In this document: positions 6,341 to 59,678 of the stretch, piece after piece
How the letters are laid out: every line of letters begins with the position of its first letter
How positions within the stretch are numbered: the stretch's first letter is position 1
Assembly (NCBI GenBank): GCA_951406725.2
Contig: OX597814.1
Coordinates: forward strand, 50,034,001-50,098,000
Direction of reading: 5' to 3'
From: Octopus vulgaris
Lineage: Eukaryota
Length of the DNA stretch: 64,000 nt
The notes under the pieces: generated by a model
Databases searched by the model: none
What the model was told of the DNA's origin: nothing
Seen by the model: the letters and a program-made list of their open reading frames with translations, nothing else
Program-made: the position numbers and the translations under genes

Positions 6341-7563
6341 TACATGTGCGTTTGTCCTGATTGGCTGTCATGAGTTTATTTCTTGAAATCTTTGACGCCT
6401 GATTGCTAGCAAGTTTGCAGGGCTTGTTCTTTCCGTCGTTGTTCAGTCATTCACCTTTTAAATTTCAAGAAGACCTTGAACATTTTTGTACTTCACATTT
6501 CATGAGCATCTGTAGCGCGTTTAGTTATGGTGCTACATTCTTTCTTAGAAACTCAATAGTCAACCATACCATGACCTAAGCAAGTTGCTACACATGCAGC
6601 TGTTCAAATAATATTAAGCATAAAGCTGTTAAGTCTATGCTGGTTACTGTACAAGCAGACTCATGGTTTTCTTTCTAAAGACTGTTATCTCTGCTATAAA
6701 AGATGATAATTTTTTAACTATATCTCCCTATAAGAACTGGTCCTACGCTTACCTGTCATTTTTAGGACTGTTTCGAGAACAGTGTTATTAATTTCATATA
6801 ATTTTTATCAAACACGTTTGTCGCAGTTCTGTTTAATATTTCCCATTCAGAGAAAGAATTTGTTAAACTTAACACTTCTTCCCCGCATAGACCTCCAGTA
6901 GATTTAAACTTGTTCTGGTGGGACGTATTTCATACTGAGTATTGCACATTAACTTGTCCCTCCATGAATTTTTACCCACGTCTAGTGCTGGTTGTTTTGA
7001 TATTCTTCAGACGTTTTATTCTTTGCGTTCTTTTCAAAACCAAAACATTTGGTCACAAATTGTACAGATATCTCATATAACTGTTTGTAAAGTTCGTAAT
7101 TCCATTGTATAATGCGGTAATAGTCTCGACTGGGACGAAAGAGACTAATAATTTTAATCATGACCAATTCGTCTATTTACTACTAATGTATATTTAATTT
7201 TAAATAGTTAATGACGCTCTTTAAATGTACCGATAAATTTTAATCGTGATTGAATTTAAAGTTATTCACAACTTGAGATTTCTTTTGTTTAAAATTATTT
7301 AGATTCTACACTTCTGTCAGAGAGTATATAACTAGTTACTTTACAACATATTGAAAGTGTCTCTGAATTACTTTTTGGGGTATGTGTTCATAGATGTACA
7401 TTACAATAGATGTAATATGTAATTTTGGAGATGTACTTGCATAGCAAGTGACCTGATCTGAGATCGTGTGCTGGAACGAAAGCAATTGCAGCGTGGAAGG
7501 TGTTTATAAGCCATTTAAGAAACACACAAAAACCGTTAGACTTACTTCAACATTTAAATTTAA

Positions 7564-7614
7564 TTTGTCAAAATATTTTCGTCGCTTTGAGACCGCGACC
7601 TGTTCACTGACAAA
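7564..7614 (-). ncRNA. Minimal type I hammerhead ribozyme motif with G3-C8 variant core
   Basis: Minus strand: UUUGUCA-GUGAACA-G-GUCGC(ggucucaaa)GCGAC-GAAA-AUAU-UU-UGACAAA. 7-bp stem I, 5-bp stem II, palindromic stem III AAUAUU. Confidence 0.7.
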
Positions 7615-8080
7615 ACTTCGTGCTGCAATGTTGTGTAGAAAAATTTGTATGCTATCTTAAACAGTAACTAAATTTTTCCACAGTATTGTATGCTGCCTTC
7701 AGACAAACAGTAATTACATAAGTCCGAATATCGCACTGGCCATTACGGTCACCGTGTTTAAATGTATATATGAATGAATCTATATATGTACAGCTATATC
7801 TTTACACATTTATGCGTGCAAGTATGAGAACATTAGTGCATATGAGTCATCATGTATGCGTACGTGCAATCATTTCTAGATTTGGCGGTAAAAGTTAGCT
7901 TGCTTGCTTGCTTTGTTCTTTCTTTTGAAAACCCCTGCATTTCTAAATGATAATGTAATTTGTTGAAGCACACCCTAGTACACCTGTAATTTTAAGTAGA
8001 AGAAAAAAGAATACATACATATTGATAAAAATGGTAAGAAAAACAAAAGAAAATATTAAGTAAATAGAGGAATTTATCTG

Positions 8081-8267
8081 TAAATGTAATATGTGGCAAT
8101 TATTTGGTAGTCATGATAAAACTGCGAGTTTCGGATGCCGGGTGGAATTCCACGCCACCATCTCTTCAGTTACGAATAACTGAAGAGATGGTGGCGTGGA
8201 TTTCCACCTCGGCATCTGAAACTCGCAGTTTTATCATGACTACCGAATAATTGTCTTTACATATTAC

Positions 8268-22955: not shown

Positions 22956-25441
22956 CAGTGATTCCCAATAAGGTCCCTGAGGCCCACCGGTGGTCCCCAG
23001 AGAATTTCTAGTGGTCCCATAAATAAATTGATGCCATTTTAGATCTACACAATATTGTTCGATAATAAAGACACTGTTAGTTAATAATAATTTATATGAA
23101 GACAGAATAATAATAAGAAAACAAAATTCAATAATTATTCCATAAGAATCATTAATGTATAATATATAATCAATAATATATTACAATCAAGAATTACATA
23201 ATTTAAATTTTACACTCAGAACAGTTTCATAATAAAGTTCATATTTTTGATAGATCACTACGCAACATTGTTTAATAATACATTTGATACTTTTAATTTA
23301 TAAAAATAAAGTATTTTTATACATCTTACTTTTATAGAAATAAATAATTTATTATTTTTATTTTTTTAAAGATCAGTTGTAATAATGTCTGAACCAACTG
23401 CTCCAAAGGCAAAACTGAGGAACTATAAAGAAGATTTTATGTTTTGGTTTTGTATCTGTAGACTCAAAAACCTATGTGGCTTGAATGTGATGTCATCATA
23501 ACAGATCAATCCATTAAGATAGTTAAGCTGGAACAGCACCAGAAATTAAGCCATCATCTGTCTGTAAAGGTAGGGAATATTTTGAGGATAGTAAGAAAAT
23601 ACAGCCAATCAAACTACCCAAGTTTGTAAAGAAGATAAATACTGAAAACGTAAAGACACTCAAACCAAGATAGTTGGTCTCTGAAATTATTGCCAAGGTT
23701 GCAGCACCTCAGATTTATGGTGAGATGCTTGTCAAGCCTGCTATGATAGCTTGTGCAAATGAGGTTCTGAGAAAAGATGCTGCATCTACTCTGAGTACAA
23801 TTCCACTTTCAACTAACACAGTTACAAGAAGACAGGATGAAATGTCTAATTTTGTTGAGGAGAAGATTGTGGAAATTCTCCAAAAGACAAATTTTTCTAT
23901 CCAGGTTGATGATAGCACAATTCATAACCAAACTATACTTCTGGTCTATGTCAGATTCATCCATGGAGATGATATAAAGGAAGAAATGTTATTCATTAAA
24001 AGTTTGTCTCAAGCTACTAATGGAGAAGATATATTCAATGAAGTAATGCAGTATTTTAATGATAGAAATATTCCATTGACTAATTTGATCAACATTGCAT
24101 CAGATGGAGCTGCAGCAATGACTGGAAAAGTGAAAGGCTTTGTCTCTAGAATGAAGTCAGTTGCTCCTAACATTTTTAAAAATATACATTGCATTATCCA
24201 CAAACAGCATTTGGTTGCTAAGAATATTGGAGGACACATGGAAGAAGCTCTCAACACTACCATGCATGCAATTAACTTTGTCAAATCAATCTCAGTGAAT
24301 AATAGATTTTTTATGCAATTCTGTGAAGATGAAGATTTTAAAACCCTAATGCTTCACACAGAAGTAAGAAGGTTATCAAAAGGCCTGAGCTTTGAAAGAC
24401 TAGTGAATTTGTAGGAACCATTAATCAACTTTCTCATGTTCAAGAGTCAGATGACTCATTACAACTCCAAGAAGCAAGCTGATACAGCTAAGAAAATTTT
24501 GGAAAAGCTTTCTGAGTTTAAATCAAAAATATTCTATTTGAGTGATATTTTTAAAACAGTGAATCTGCTTAACTTAGAGCTGTAAGGTAGAAAATCAGAT
24601 TTGATCACCTGTTCTCAGAAGATAAATGGGTATATGGGGAAAATAAAATTTTGGAAAAAACAGTTTAAAAAAAAATTTGGCATCATTTCAAAATTTTAAC
24701 ACCACTGTTCCTACATCAGAATACATTGCTGCATGCATTGCCCATCTCGAAGGTCTTCATGTAGACCTTGATAGAAGATACAATGATTTATTAATGATGG
24801 ATACAATGTTCTATTAAAGATGGATTATCCACTCTGGTTTGTAGAGCTAAAAAATTATGAGCCAGGAGAGGAAAATTTTGAGTTGGCTGAAATGTTGTTG
24901 GATTTGAAAGAGAATATGAAACTGAGAAGAAGAGTTGAGCAAGAAGGTGTCTTTACCTACATATCAATAAAGGAATCACACCCAAATATTTTTCGATATG
25001 TAGAAGTAGGCATGGTTTTTTTCTCTACCACATGGATGGTTGAATCTGCATTTTCAGTTGTTGTAGATATTTTTAAGTAGAAAAAGAAATAGATTACATG
25101 TCAACAGCGGAGGAACTATCACACAGAGACTAAATGAGTTCATTAAAATTAATTATATCTTGTGTTAGAAACGCCAATATCAAGCTAGTCCCTAGCTGAA
25201 TGGACTAAAAATGAACGACTTTATGAAAATGCTTTGATATCTTGTCTTTATCTTTGTTTACTAAAGTAAATTTTAAATTTTATCTTTTGTTTGCTAAAAT
25301 AAATTTTAAAGTGTATTTTATCTTTTCATTAAGTATTTTAGTGTGAAAATAGAACAGCATGAAATAAAAGTTGAAGTGGTCCCTAGAAATTTTTTCAAGT
25401 AAAAAAATGGTCTCTGGGCTGAAAAAGGTTGGGAACCACTG
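22956..25441 (+). mobile_element. Full-length decayed hAT (Buster/Charlie-like) DNA transposon
   Basis: TIRs cagtgattcccaa / ttgggaaccactg; perfect 8-bp TSD atataacc at 22948-22955 and 25442-25449; internal transposase relic. Confidence 0.95.
23385..25190 (+). pseudogene. hAT transposase pseudogene (stops and frameshifts)
   Basis: Motifs FSIQVDDST, LLVYVRFI, IASDGAAAMTG, IHCIIHKQHL, HTEVR(W>R)LSKG, FSTTWMVESAFS. Confidence 0.92.
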
Positions 25442-39000: not shown

Positions 39001-42000
39001 TCCATCCCAAATACTGTCCTAAATACAGAGTCCATGGTCCTGATCCCAAATATGGATGCACAAAAGACAATGGATGCACCTTATTCCATCCTAAACTGTG
39101 CCAAACTTCTGTGTCACAAAGGATGTGCCTGAACCCAGAATGCAACCACCACCATCTGAAGGGCACAAAACGATCACAGAATAAATATAAACAGCAACAG
39201 AGGAAATTTAAGACAACAACAAGAACAAGATATAACCACGTTTCCCCTCCTACAATCAAACAACGTAGACAGAACCATGAAAAAACCATAACACCAAATA
39301 ACACCAACATGAAATATGTATCCTCCGACCAAGTGGCAAACCAAAGAGGTAACTCTTTTTTACTGACTTACCTAGAAAATATGAAGGCCGACCTAAGCCA
39401 GGAGATCCAACGAGCTATCAGCAACCACCTAAGCAAATCACAAGGACCACACACCCATTACCAACAAGAAAATCATACACACACAGCTCCATACAAGAAC
39501 TACCCTCATTGTTACCACTGAACAACATAAAACATAACTTAGAACAATGCAAACATCAAACTTCCCTTACCTCGACATTCCTGTTAAATGTACGTGGCAT
39601 CAACCCATCAATTATTGCCCAAAATGGAAAGATCCCATATATAGAGAGTTGGCTTGCCGAAACGGCACATTGCTTCCTTTCTTTATCCTTACCGAGACTC
39701 ACCTGAACAACACCCATATGGACGCCGAGGTGAAAATAAAAGATTTCACCATTGCTCGTGCGGATCGCACAGACCGAAATAAGGGAGGGACGGCCATCTT
39801 TATCTATGACTCCTTTTCACTTGATGCCAAGGACATATTTTCCAATGGCTACTGTGCATCGGTATCACTATTCAGCAAGGCCAAGGACATAATCATTGTT
39901 GGTCTTTACAGGCCTCCCCAAGCACCTCTAAAGTGCTTTGAAGAGTGCCTTAGCAAAGTCAAGTCCTTCCTTCGGAAGTACCACTCCGGAAACATACTAG
40001 TGATGGGTGATTTTAACCTCCCTCATGTGAACTGGCCCACAAATACTCTGAAGTTAGGCAAGTGCTCTACATCAGATAGAGCAGCAGTAGAACTGCTCTT
40101 TAATCTGATGGATGAATACTTCCTGTCTCAGCTAGTGCTCGAACCAACGAGGCAGAATAAAACGATCTTGGATCTGGTATTGACCAATCACTCTAGCTTC
40201 GTTCACAGTATTTCAGTTTAAAAAACTCTCCTCTCAGACCACGACATGGTACTCTGCAATTTTAATTCCCGACATATAAAAACCAAACCAGCCAATCCCA
40301 CTCCATGGCACCCATTTGACAACATAAACTTCCACAAAGCGGACTGGGGAGCAATCAGAAAGGATCTGTCTTTCATCGACTGGTCTTTTACTCTCAATTC
40401 CACCCATATTGAGACCGCATGGCAGCACTTTGAAAACATTGTCACCTATACATGCTCTAAACACGCTCCCACGAAATCTACTAACACAAACAGAAACCGG
40501 CTCCCTAAAAAGAAAAAAACACTCATCAGGCGCATCAAAAGACTCAAAAAAAATCAACCAATTAAAATATTCCCACACACAACATCCACATTCATCAACA
40601 ATGAAAAGGCTAGAGCTGGAAAAACTTCATCTGCAGACCGACATGAAAACCTCCATTGAAAATCAAAGAGCTGTGGAGGAACAGTGGATAATCAAAAACA
40701 TCAAACAGAACCCAAAAGTGTTCTATTCTTATGCAAATAAGCATAGAACCACTGTCTCACCCATTGGGCCATTGATTGATGATAACGGCATTCCCCAACA
40801 CGATACTAAAGAAATGTCAGAAATACTGCAGAAACAATACTGCTCTGTCTTTAGTGTTCCCACTGATATTGACGTAAGAGAAGCGAACGAAGTTGACTCC
40901 CAACATAAAATCTCAGACATAACCTTCACTGCCACTGACATCGTAGCAGCAATAAATGAGGTCAAATACTACTCTGCTGTAGGCCCTGATAGATTCCCCG
41001 CTAGTCTCCTGAAGGAATGTAGACACCAACTTGCAGTCCCTCTGACCAACCTCTGGAGAAATTCGTTAGACGCAGGTTATATACCGAAACAGTTTCTATC
41101 CCAGTCGGTCATCCCGGTTTTCAAACAGGGAAACAGATCCCTCGCAGTCAACTATCGCCCAATCTCACTCACCTCCCACATCATTAAAGTGTTTGAAAGA
41201 GTGTTAAGATCAAGGATAGCTGACTTCCTGGAGACCCACAAACTCCTAAATGCAAATCAGCATGGCTTTCGCTGTGGCAGGGACTGTCTAACACAGCTCT
41301 TACACCACATTGAAGATGTACTCAAAGCCTTGGGACAGGTTCGAACTCTGACGTCATATATCTTGACTTCAGTAAAGCGTTCGACAGGGTAGACCATAAT
41401 ATCCTACTCTCAAAATTGGCAAATGTTGGAATCCGTGGAAAAGTTCTACACTGGATTAAGTATTTCCTGGCGAATAGAACACAACATGTTGTAGTTGATG
41501 GAGTCCACTCAAGCCCAGCAAAAGTCACCAGCGGTGTCCCCCAGGGGACTGTCTTGGGTCCGCTACTCTTCATAATTTACATAAACGACCTTTCCAGTGT
41601 CGTACATTACTGCAAAGTGAAAATATTTGCTGATGACACTAAGCTCCAGCAAATCGTCAATGAAGAAGCAGACCGAACTCAACTCCAGTCTGATCTATAT
41701 GCTGTGAGTCAATGGGCAGACAGAAACAAAATGCAACTGAATGAGGGAAAATTTGAGCTGATGCATTTTGGAAGAAATTCCTCACTAAAACAGCCATACT
41801 CTCTTCCTTCAGGGGAAACCGCTCACAGCCTCTAACAATATCAGAGACCTGGGTGTAATTGTTGATGACGATCTCAGTTGGAGTGCACACATCAACAAGA
41901 AGGTCGATATAGCTCGTAGGATGAGTTCCTGGATCTTAAGAACTTTCCGGTCCAGAGAACAAGGTGTCATCATACCACTTTTCTCCTCCTTTGTACGGCC

Positions 42001-42600
42001 ACACCTCGAATATTGCTGCCCACTGTGGTCTCCCCATACAAGACAAAACATCTCCAGGATTGAGTCACCCCAGAGGGCACTCACTAAACGAATTGAAGGC
42101 ATGGCTGCTCTCGATTATTGGGATCGCCTTAAAGCCTTGAAACTTTACTCTCTCCAGCATCGCCGTGAGCGGTACATCATTTGTACGATGTGGAGAATAT
42201 ACCGCCAACTTTGCCCAAACGACCTTAACATTAGCTTCAAGGTTCATCCAAGACTGGGACCACGGGCCATACGTCCCCTGCCCAATTCAAGATCACAGCA
42301 TACATGTACACTGCAACATAATTTCTTTTCCTCAACAGGCCCTGTCCTATTTAACATTGTCCCGAGGGATATCAAAGAAGAAAATGATCCCATCAACTTT
42401 AAACGGAGTCTGGATAGATTCCTTCAAAGAATACCAGATGAGCCACCCATAATTGGATACAACTCACCCAACAAGAACTCACTACTTAAATGGACCATAA
42501 ACAAAACTTGACTTAAACAGGATTCGAATAATCCTATCTGGTGGTGCTATTAAGTTAGACATGGCCTGGACCAATCTTTGGTCGAAACATATCTAAGTTT
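38997..42600 (+). mobile_element. Near-complete CR1/L2-group LINE (LINE-A): ORF1 3' part, disrupted ORF2, intact 3' end
   Basis: ORF1 with tandem CCCH fingers; APE motifs LTETHL, GLYRPP, GDFNLP, LDLVLT, SDH; RT motifs YRPISLTS, QHGFR, GVPQGTVLGPLLF, FADD; 3' end gaaacatatctaagtttt then (TA)n. Confidence 0.95.
39547..42511 (+). pseudogene. LINE ORF2 (APE endonuclease and reverse transcriptase) with several frameshifts and stops
   Basis: ORF-track pieces 39547-40221, 40246-40659, 40409-41392, 41416-41835 and 41921-42511 are collinear EN-RT-C-terminal segments. Confidence 0.95.
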
Positions 42601-59197: not shown

Positions 59198-59406
59198 CAA
59201 AACTTATATACAGTTCTATATTTAAGATCTGAGGAATTATGTACATTATTTACAATTGATTGATATTTTTCCTCATCTTGGTTGTTGTTAACACAACATT
59301 TCGGCTGATACACCCTCCAGCCTTCATTAGGTGTCTTGGGGAATTTTCGAACCTGAGTTCTCATTCCTATGGTATTTTTCGGTGTTATTATTATTATTTC
59401 GATATG

Positions 59407-59437
<31 letters not shown>

Positions 59438-59678
59438 TCACTGCCTGGAATCGAACTGGGAATCTTGGGGTTAGTAGCCCGCGCTCTTAACCATATGTCC
59501 ATGGGCATATGGCGTAGTGGTTAATAATAATAATAAAACATCGAAAAATACCTTAGAAATGAGAACCCAGGTTCGAAATTTCTCCAAGACACCTGATGAA
59601 GGCTGGAGGGTGTATCAGCTGAAACGTTGTGTTAACAACAACCAAGATGAGGACAAATATCCGTCAATTGTAAATAAT
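59198..59678. mobile_element. Head-to-head inverted pair of a tRNA-head/(AAT)n/hammerhead element
   Basis: 59245-59397 mirrors 59521-59678; tRNA-like head at 59433-59500 on the minus strand; symmetry centre ccatatgtccatgggcatatgg. Confidence 0.85.
59589..59632 (+). ncRNA. Minimal type I hammerhead ribozyme with intact core
   Basis: ACAC-CUGAUGA-A-GGCUG(gaggguguau)CAGCU-GAAA-CG-UU-GUGU. The mirror copy (59291-59334, minus) has CUAAUGA and GAAAUG changes but a perfect GGCUG/CAGCC stem II. Confidence 0.8.

What the first reader, a model, noticed from the sequence alone, without database searches (positions are those of the whole stretch)
7564..7614. Hammerhead motif with reciprocal G3-C8 core swap
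Seen: complete minimal type I layout (7-bp stem I UUUGUCA/UGACAAA, stem II GUCGC/GCGAC, GAAA, palindromic AAUAUU) with core GUGAACA instead of CUGANGA. Established: C3 and G8 form a tertiary Watson-Crick pair in the active fold, and compensatory swaps can retain activity. Inference: two changes exactly at positions 3 and 8 indicate covariation under selection, and standard CUGANGA searches would miss this motif. It lies at one end of a ~200-bp repeat-like block (7425-7625).
Basis: partly seen in the sequence, partly recalled or inferred. Interest (0 to 1): 0.75.

Follow-up and report, generated by a model that had tools for sequence, protein, structure and literature searches.

The report
Swapped-core hammerhead in Penelope retroelement end
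This motif is shaped like a small self-cutting 'hammerhead' RNA in which two paired core letters have traded places (G-C instead of C-G); it sits in the end-piece of a Penelope-type jumping gene with over a thousand matching copies in this genome, and it likely still cuts slowly in pairs, but cutting has not been shown.

Summary
Confirmed, on the minus strand, with two corrections: an extra G lies between A9 and stem II, and the cleavage-site base is U. The motif opens a ~200-nt repeat (7627 to 7427). G3-C8 is in 1,070 of 1,182 exact-flank matches and C3-G8 in none. [quoted passage not shown] An older family (80% identical) keeps G3-C8 while N7, loop II, the palindrome and a stem I pair change. 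Homologous sister families carry C3-G8 or U3-A8, so the swap is derived and probably arose once. Against strict selection: other sister subfamilies amplified with U3·G8 or C3·A8, G3·G8 templates were copied, most copies come from uncut RNA, and the dimer helix is predicted to be very weak. Cleavage is untested. No natural G3-C8 hammerhead turned up in the papers I could search; two key papers were not held. This scan has noted the same swap before, in another copy of this family, elsewhere in this genome, and in phages. New variant of a known kind.

The parts
7427..7627 (-). ~200-nt 3'-terminal piece (pseudo-LTR end plus tail) of a Penelope-like element; 'family A'
   Evidence: fixed ends; longer copies join it to a PLE ORF
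7608..7614 (-). stem I, 5' arm
7601..7607 (-). core positions 3-9, GUGAACA: G3 at 7607, free N7 at 7603, C8 at 7602
   Evidence: fixation
7600..7600 (-). extra unpaired G between A9 and G10.1 (a PLE min-HHR trait; the published consensus has A/C/U here)
   Evidence: PMC4209133; same G in families B-E
7581..7599 (-). stem II (5 bp) with 9-nt loop
   Evidence: pair probability 0.95 in the whole element
7578..7580 (-). G12, A13, A14
7572..7577 (-). self-complementary hexamer (A15.1 to U16.1); predicted to form stem III only between two ribozymes
   Evidence: 56 of 62 copies; duplex -0.2 kcal/mol
7570..7571 (-). predicted cleavage site after U17 (7571)
   Evidence: hammerhead numbering (inference); U17 in 62 of 62 copies
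7564..7570 (-). stem I, 3' arm
7479..7486 (-). first recurrent 3' end (end of the arm that lacks the tail)
   Evidence: 33 of 47 inverted partner arms end here
7431..7497 (-). 3' tail region homologous across families A-E; likely the site where reverse transcription starts
   Evidence: nhmmer profile of C/D/E tails, E = 2.9e-4, best reversed-sequence control 0.45; role inferred from PMC11167929

Best explanation
The motif is the minimal type I hammerhead in the terminal repeat of a Penelope-like retroelement, carrying an inherited G3-C8 swap of the core pair, and it likely remains a slow ribozyme that would cut only as a dimer or with help from the element's protein. Shown: the anatomy, the fixation in two families, the link in cis to a PLE ORF, and homologous sister families with C3-G8 and U3-A8. 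Inferred: (1) the swap arose once on the branch to families A+B from a pyrimidine-3/purine-8 core, through an unpaired intermediate, and the restored pair was favoured by weak selection on the fold; (2) U17, already present in the sister families, made the swap tolerable, since G3·U17 stabilises the misfolded extension of stem I by only 1.3 kcal/mol against 3.5 for G3-C17; (3) the many ~200-nt copies are cDNAs of capped transcripts that start about 24 nt upstream of G3 and are reverse-transcribed from the tail, mostly before any cut; (4) cleavage would serve to process tandem or read-through element RNA and is not needed for each insertion.
For: Fixation: G3-C8 1,070, C3-G8 0, G3 with another base at 8: 74, non-G3: 38, of 1,182; 48 of 54 in a sample picked by the tail only. 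Family B (412 candidates): G3 33 of 39, C8 31 of 39; the free N7 differs (C 24, U 10, A 4, G 1); the palindrome is 4 nt instead of 6; the outer stem I pair is G-C instead of U-A; U17 is kept. Sisters: E has U3 32 of 32 and A8 31 of 32, with a compensated stem II pair; D has C3 7 of 8, G8 6 of 8, and C17. Homology: same extra G and stems, shared tail; A+B against C, D, E 100/100. PLE link: the endonuclease C-terminus, UTR and ribozyme are colinear in L438, L440, L442, L444 (L439 from the last codons); Pfam GIY-YIG E = 2.3e-4, 21.8 bits, just under the 22.6 cut-off; RT motifs read by eye in L440; the partner of family E is ~47% identical. Inverted arms in 47 of 90; target-site duplications of 9 nt or more in 5 of 21, shuffled mean 0.36. 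Untemplated 5' G in 17 of 22. Literature: C3G/G8C partly restores a PLE hammerhead, which needs the PLE protein to cut (PMC11167929); G3-C8 works better without C17 (PMC3884650, 'data not shown').
Against: Probably one origin only (midpoint root, no outgroup). A and B are 80% identical outside the ribozyme, so 13 unchanged core sites have p = 0.056 under drift. Family C subfamilies amplified with U3·G8 (11 of 17) and C3·A8 (7 of 13). In A, G3·G8 occurs in 34 copies, more than the transition U8 (26) (counted); of 22 examined, 3 insertions have G8 in both arms, so mismatched templates were copied. 38 of 90 copies reach the 5' start, so they come from uncut RNA; only 3 of 93 internal 5' ends lie on the predicted cut (p = 0.02 exact, 0.25 within one base; one has microhomology, one is a deletion; four other sites have 3 or more, besides two further sites with 3). 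The dimer helix is predicted at -0.2 kcal/mol (A) and +2.2 (B); stem I has probability ~0.33 at 37 C and 0.01 at 18 C in the whole window copy. Cleavage was not required for insertion in vitro in PMC11167929.
Confidence: 0.62

Rival explanations
1. Relaxed or dead ribozyme: the PLE hammerhead lost its importance in this superfamily, positions 3 and 8 drift, and G3-C8 is complementary by luck; copies spread because insertion does not need cleavage.
For: Non-Watson-Crick masters U3·G8 and C3·A8; G3·G8 templates copied; mostly uncut templates; very weak stem III; family E has only a 3-bp stem I; PMC8557442 notes that PLE clades without canonical HHRs proliferate well and that HHRs may parasitise PLEs.
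Against: U4, G5, A6, A9, G10.1-C11.1, G12-A14, A15.1 and U16.1 hold in the majority lines of all five families while loops and 3' sequence diverge; stems covary; stem III stays self-complementary at different lengths. U·G and C·A are the expected transition intermediates between C-G and U-A (general knowledge).
Confidence: 0.27
2. The fold or sequence is kept for a job other than cutting, such as RNA dimerisation, binding of the PLE protein, or a splice signal (G3 completes a pyrimidine-rich CAG that looks like a 3' splice site).
For: PLE protein assists the hammerhead in PMC11167929; the Penelope intron ends at helix I in Drosophila virilis (PMC4209133); a branch-point-like, pyrimidine-rich CAG also precedes the element's 5' start in long copies.
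Against: No copy in 87 showed the spliced junction to the one donor-like site tested; no pile of loose ends at 7606-7607 in four runs (contigs only); this would not explain C8.
Confidence: 0.08
3. Chance look-alike in a repeat.
For: Short motif; Rfam finds no hammerhead here.
Against: 0 descriptor hits in shuffles; homologous families with canonical cores at the same place; position behind a PLE ORF; Rfam also misses the canonical one at 59593.
Confidence: 0.02

Closest known systems
Minimal type I hammerheads (min-HHRs) of metazoan Penelope-like elements (Cervera and de la Pena 2014, PMC4209133; read parts 1-2 of 4 of the text, supplement file 2 part 1 of 3 and passages; file 1 not searchable)
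   Same: Type I layout, extra nucleotide between 9 and 10.1, G10.1-C11.1, palindromic stem III, U17 common, position in the pLTR behind an RT-endonuclease ORF, many single truncated copies and opposite-strand pairs.
   Different: G3-C8 core; the text read reports only C3-G8 and U3-A8. The extra nucleotide is G where the >80% consensus has A/C/U. Stem I is 7 bp and stem II 5 bp.
PAc Poseidon hammerhead of the green anole (PMC11167929; read part 1 of 2 of the main text and passages)
   Same: PLE hammerhead upstream of an internal RT start that gives the genomic tail; its C3G/G8C lab mutant is this core and is partly active; AT-rich targets.
   Different: There the swap is engineered. The partner here has a C-x3-C-x2-C linker before a C-terminal GIY-YIG (Neptune/Nematis type by the description in PMC8557442, passages read); clade not resolved.
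Natural core variants in Perreault et al. 2011 (PMC3088659; passages)
   Same: Natural covariation of the 3-8 pair.
   Different: Only U3-A8 is named in the passages seen; figures and supplements not seen.
Non-LTR retrozymes (PMC7229834, passages; bioRxiv 10.64898/2026.07.22.740005, parts 1-2 of 5)
   Same: Short type I HHR-bearing repeats derived from PLE ends.
   Different: Family A is dispersed as single copies or inverted pairs, not head-to-tail arrays, and long copies run into a PLE ORF.

Membership tests
Hammerhead ribozyme, type I | Stems I and II flanking the core, open end in stem I | tested here: met
   covarying pairs across families
Hammerhead ribozyme, type I | U4, G5, A6, A9, G12, A13, A14, A15.1-U16.1, G10.1-C11.1 | tested here: met
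   majority lines of families A-E
Hammerhead ribozyme, type I | C3 and G8 as letters (CUGANGA) | tested here: not met
   G3-C8 in 1,070 of 1,182, C3-G8 in 0
Hammerhead ribozyme, type I | Positions 3 and 8 complementary | tested here: met
   G-C in A and B; C-G in D; U-A in E; but U·G and C·A in C subfamilies
Hammerhead ribozyme, type I | Stable stem III in the monomer | tested here: not met
   closing it costs ~5 kcal/mol; palindrome only, as in dimeric min-HHRs
Hammerhead ribozyme, type I | Site-specific self-cleavage after N17 | not testable with these tools
   genomic proxy inconclusive: 3 of 93 internal 5' ends on the site
Rfam hammerhead families | Match to a covariance model | tested here: not met
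   no hammerhead hit up to E = 10; the canonical min-HHR at 59593 is missed too
PLE min-HHR | Extra nucleotide between 9 and 10.1 | tested here: met
   G at 7600; the base differs from the published A/C/U consensus
PLE min-HHR | Self-complementary stem III segment | tested here: met
   56 of 62 copies; a different palindrome in family B
PLE min-HHR | Located in the pLTR behind a PLE ORF | tested here: met
   colinear in L438, L440, L442, L444
Penelope-like element (C-terminal EN+) | RT followed by a GIY-YIG endonuclease | tested here: inconclusive
   GIY-YIG E = 2.3e-4, just under the cut-off; RT motifs by eye only, no Pfam hit for two broken fragments; no intact ORF found; two homologue searches empty
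Penelope-like element (C-terminal EN+) | Inverted 5'-truncated arm and a tail on one arm; AT-rich or microsatellite targets | tested here: met
   47 of 90 with inverted arm; two 3' ends about 55 nt apart; flanks; described in PMC8557442
Non-LTR retrozyme | Head-to-tail arrays with an HHR in each unit | tested here: not met
   window copy single; 2 of 30 loci show partial direct repeats only; arrays elsewhere in the genome not excluded
Non-LTR retrozyme | Circular RNA | not testable with these tools
   only contigs were available

The most novel reading that the evidence does not exclude
An animal PLE lineage runs on an active natural G3-C8 hammerhead, and its superfamily records the whole walk of a tertiary core pair (C-G, U·G, C·A, U-A, G-C), including a double transversion that had to cross an unpaired state; the element's protein would buffer or tune the core, so that slow cutting is what selection keeps.
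Probability: 0.4. Interest if true: 0.68.

Novelty: new variant of a known kind. Interest (0 to 1): 0.5.

Why it matters
The 3-8 pair is the tertiary contact of the active hammerhead fold. In the papers I could reach, G3-C8 appears only as a lab rescue mutant. A lineage that kept it over ~20% divergence, next to sister families with four other 3-8 states, gives a ready-made series for testing an open question: whether PLE hammerheads must cut at all, and how much. It also means that searches built on CUGANGA or UUGANAA undercount these motifs by at least a thousand copies in this genome. The limit is that it is one more core variant in a known setting, probably of single origin, with no activity data.

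Tried and rejected
Rfam: whole-window scan swamped by microsatellite hits to miRNA models (104 of 254 rows not shown); local scans gave no hammerhead. Expression: no RNA holder listed; only contigs could be laid, and they cannot show RNA ends. No other letter was listed at 7602 or 7607 in eight layings (3% threshold with 5 rows hidden; 2%). A second G3-C8 family with an ACGY stem III: not seen (358 matches against 444 for the control, first 100 listed). The abundant 781-aa Neptune-like PLE as partner: rejected; its hammerhead is U3-A8 with other stems, and it shares no tail or protein similarity. A shared continuation behind the tail: none among 90 copies, apart from three loci sharing a flank, so the start of the ORF is not found. 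A G3·G8 subfamily: not a single clade; haplotypes and flanks differ (20 of 34 fetched, plus 2). Spliced copies at the donor-like site tested: 0 of 87. The MAFFT alignment A1 put family B out of register, so it was not used for pair counts. The family B set held at least one A-like copy (L115). The 1,182 matches are not all independent insertions: 14 of the first 30 loci belong to one duplicated block. Not-in-print claim rests on searches. Lunse et al. 2017, Przybilski and Hammann 2007 and Martick and Scott 2006 were not held and I saw nothing of them beyond citations; bioRxiv supplements, figures and Cervera supplement file 1 were not seen and may hold a natural G3-C8 case.

Full report
Observation. 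The motif is on the minus strand, 7614 to 7564. It has a 7-bp stem I, the core GUGAACA (G3 at 7607, C8 at 7602), one extra G (7600), a 5-bp stem II opening with G10.1-C11.1, G12-A13-A14, a self-complementary hexamer and U17 (7571). The 51-mer folds as drawn (z = -2.5), but the fold also pairs G3 with U17. A descriptor with free positions 3, 7 and 8 finds only this motif and a canonical one at 59593 in the window, and nothing in 30 shuffles. Rfam finds neither.

The repeat. The window lies in a 2.8-Gb genome of 227 contigs, rich in microsatellites; it resembles a cephalopod genome, which is a recalled impression and was not tested. The block 7627 to 7427 is a dispersed repeat (family A): 1,618 candidates and 4,288 exact matches to a 19-mer of its 3' end. 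With positions 3, 7 and 8 free, 1,182 places match; 38 lack G3 and 74 have G3 without C8, leaving 1,070 G3-C8 and no C3-G8. These are not all independent, since one duplicated block made up 14 of the first 30 loci. In 90 copies picked by the tail alone, 48 of 54 that cover the core are G3-C8, 62 of 62 have U17 and 56 of 62 keep the palindrome.

It is the end of a Penelope-like element. 47 of the 90 copies have an adjacent inverted arm; 33 of these 47 arms stop about 55 nt short of the far 3' end, giving the arm-plus-tail pattern described for PLEs (PMC8557442). Five of 21 simple copies have target-site duplications of 9 nt or more (shuffled mean 0.36). Some copies run further 5' into a shared microsatellite-rich stretch. 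Extending those loci showed, in the same orientation, the C-terminus of an endonuclease, a UTR and then the ribozyme in L438, L440, L442 and L444; L440 and L444 are interrupted by later insertions. The L444 fragment matches Pfam GIY-YIG at E = 2.3e-4, just under the cut-off, behind a C-x3-C-x2-C linker of the Neptune/Nematis type (PMC8557442). L440 shows RT motifs by eye, though Pfam did not score its broken fragments. No intact ORF was found, and two protein searches were empty. The core in these long copies is not always G3-C8: L444 and the inverted arm of L438 have it, the forward arm of L438 is G3·G8, L442 is A3·C8 and L440 is decayed.

Relatives. A pattern with the canonical core and the same stem II gave three hits that also share stem I, the extra G and U17, none of which was asked for. 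Following these up gave four more families. B (412 candidates) aligns with A over the whole 200 nt at 80% and keeps G3 (33 of 39), C8 (31 of 39) and U17, while N7, loop II, the palindrome length and the outer stem I pair differ. E (2,525 candidates) is U3-A8 (32 and 31 of 32) with a compensated stem II pair, and lies behind a related endonuclease, about 47% identical. D is C3-G8 with C17 (7 and 6 of 8). C (437 candidates) is old and mixed: one subtype is mostly U3·G8 (11 of 17), another mostly C3·A8 (7 of 13). A profile built from C, D and E tails finds the window copy's tail at E = 2.9e-4, against 0.45 for the best reversed control. A tree of 8 copies per family separates A+B from C, D and E at 100/100 (midpoint root). 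So G3-C8 is most simply one derived event.

Is it selected? For: the swap hits the two bases that pair in the active fold and restores complementarity; the other core positions hold in all five majority lines while the free position and loops change; stems covary; stem III stays self-complementary in different forms. Against: core identity between A and B alone has p = 0.056 under drift; non-Watson-Crick subfamilies amplified; G3·G8 occurs in 34 family A copies, more than U8 (26) (counted), and 3 of 22 examined have it in both arms, while 5 have it in one arm only. The dimer helix is predicted at -0.2 kcal/mol and stem I at probability 0.33 in the whole element. Selection on the pair looks real but weak.

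Mechanism. 38 of 90 copies reach the same 5' start about 20-24 nt upstream of G3. Where copies end in the templated AG and the next base is not the templated C, it is G in 17 of 22 (background 0.18), the pattern expected from copying a 5' cap (general knowledge; a few may come from microhomology with the inverted tail, and a second group of 26 ends is unexplained). With internal RT initiation at the tail, as shown for PAc (PMC11167929), a capped transcript from this start would give exactly these 200-nt copies. They contain the whole ribozyme, so their templates were uncut. Only 3 of 93 internal 5' ends fall on the predicted cut (p = 0.02 exact, 0.25 within one base), a weak hint at most. This fits PAc, whose hammerhead cuts only with protein, is partly rescued by C3G/G8C, and is not needed for insertion in vitro. 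U17 limits the G3-N17 trap (1.3 against 3.5 kcal/mol for C17; compare PMC3884650), but U17 is common in PLE min-HHRs and is present in C and E, so it is a permissive background rather than a third covarying change.

Known and new. It works like, and by the sequence tests belongs to, the PLE minimal hammerheads of Cervera and de la Pena, except for the C3/G8 letters; cleavage is untested. Natural U3-A8 is published. Six searches found G3-C8 only as an engineered mutant; three relevant papers were not held. Earlier notes of this scan report the same swap in this genome and in phages; one lies on a copy of this same family, which I confirmed. They are not independent support.

Verdict. Real feature, new variant of a known kind. 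PLE min-HHR lineage with an inherited G3-C8 core: about 0.95. Still a working, slow ribozyme: about 0.6. Interest 0.5.

Noticed in passing
window 8108-8250: Near-perfect inverted pair (z about -18) of another PLE-type end piece with a CUGAAGA core; its stem II register looks shifted by one base. Related copies in L018 and L285.
   Followed up: partly
window 59593 (+) and an inverted copy near 59290-59340: Canonical C3-G8 minimal hammerhead with extra nucleotide, 4-nt palindrome and U17, member of a common repeat.
   Followed up: partly
family A position 8 (window 7602): C-to-G changes (34) outnumber C-to-T (26) and C-to-A (14) among G3 copies, on different haplotypes and often in one arm of an inverted pair only; cause unknown.
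   Followed up: partly
L438:5032-5050 and 11-13 other long copies: A branch-point-like, pyrimidine-rich CAG lies right at the fixed 5' start of the short copies, with a donor-like site about 300-480 nt upstream; intron or initiator not decided.
   Followed up: partly
L033, L040-L042, L048, L052-L055, L057-L062, L072: One inverted pair of family A is carried, with identical flanks and junction, in many places on contig C1: a passively multiplied larger block.
   Followed up: no
L394: A copy with a clean deletion from G10.1 through U17, joining the extra G to the base after the predicted cut.
   Followed up: no
L267-L270, L286 and others: A young Neptune-like PLE with many intact 781-aa frames and a U3-A8 hammerhead in its 456-nt terminal repeat.
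   Followed up: partly
run X12 laid on window 7400-7650: Excess of A>G and T>C differences (6 and 11 places) over the other three runs; could be RNA editing of inverted pairs or species difference; the run is only guessed to be RNA.
   Followed up: no
window 39538-42511 (+), 23674-24414 (+): Broken LINE-type endonuclease/RT frames and a DNA-transposase-like fragment, named by eye from the translations.
   Followed up: no
window 7120-7147: Small GC-rich hairpin just outside the element, not part of family A.
   Followed up: no
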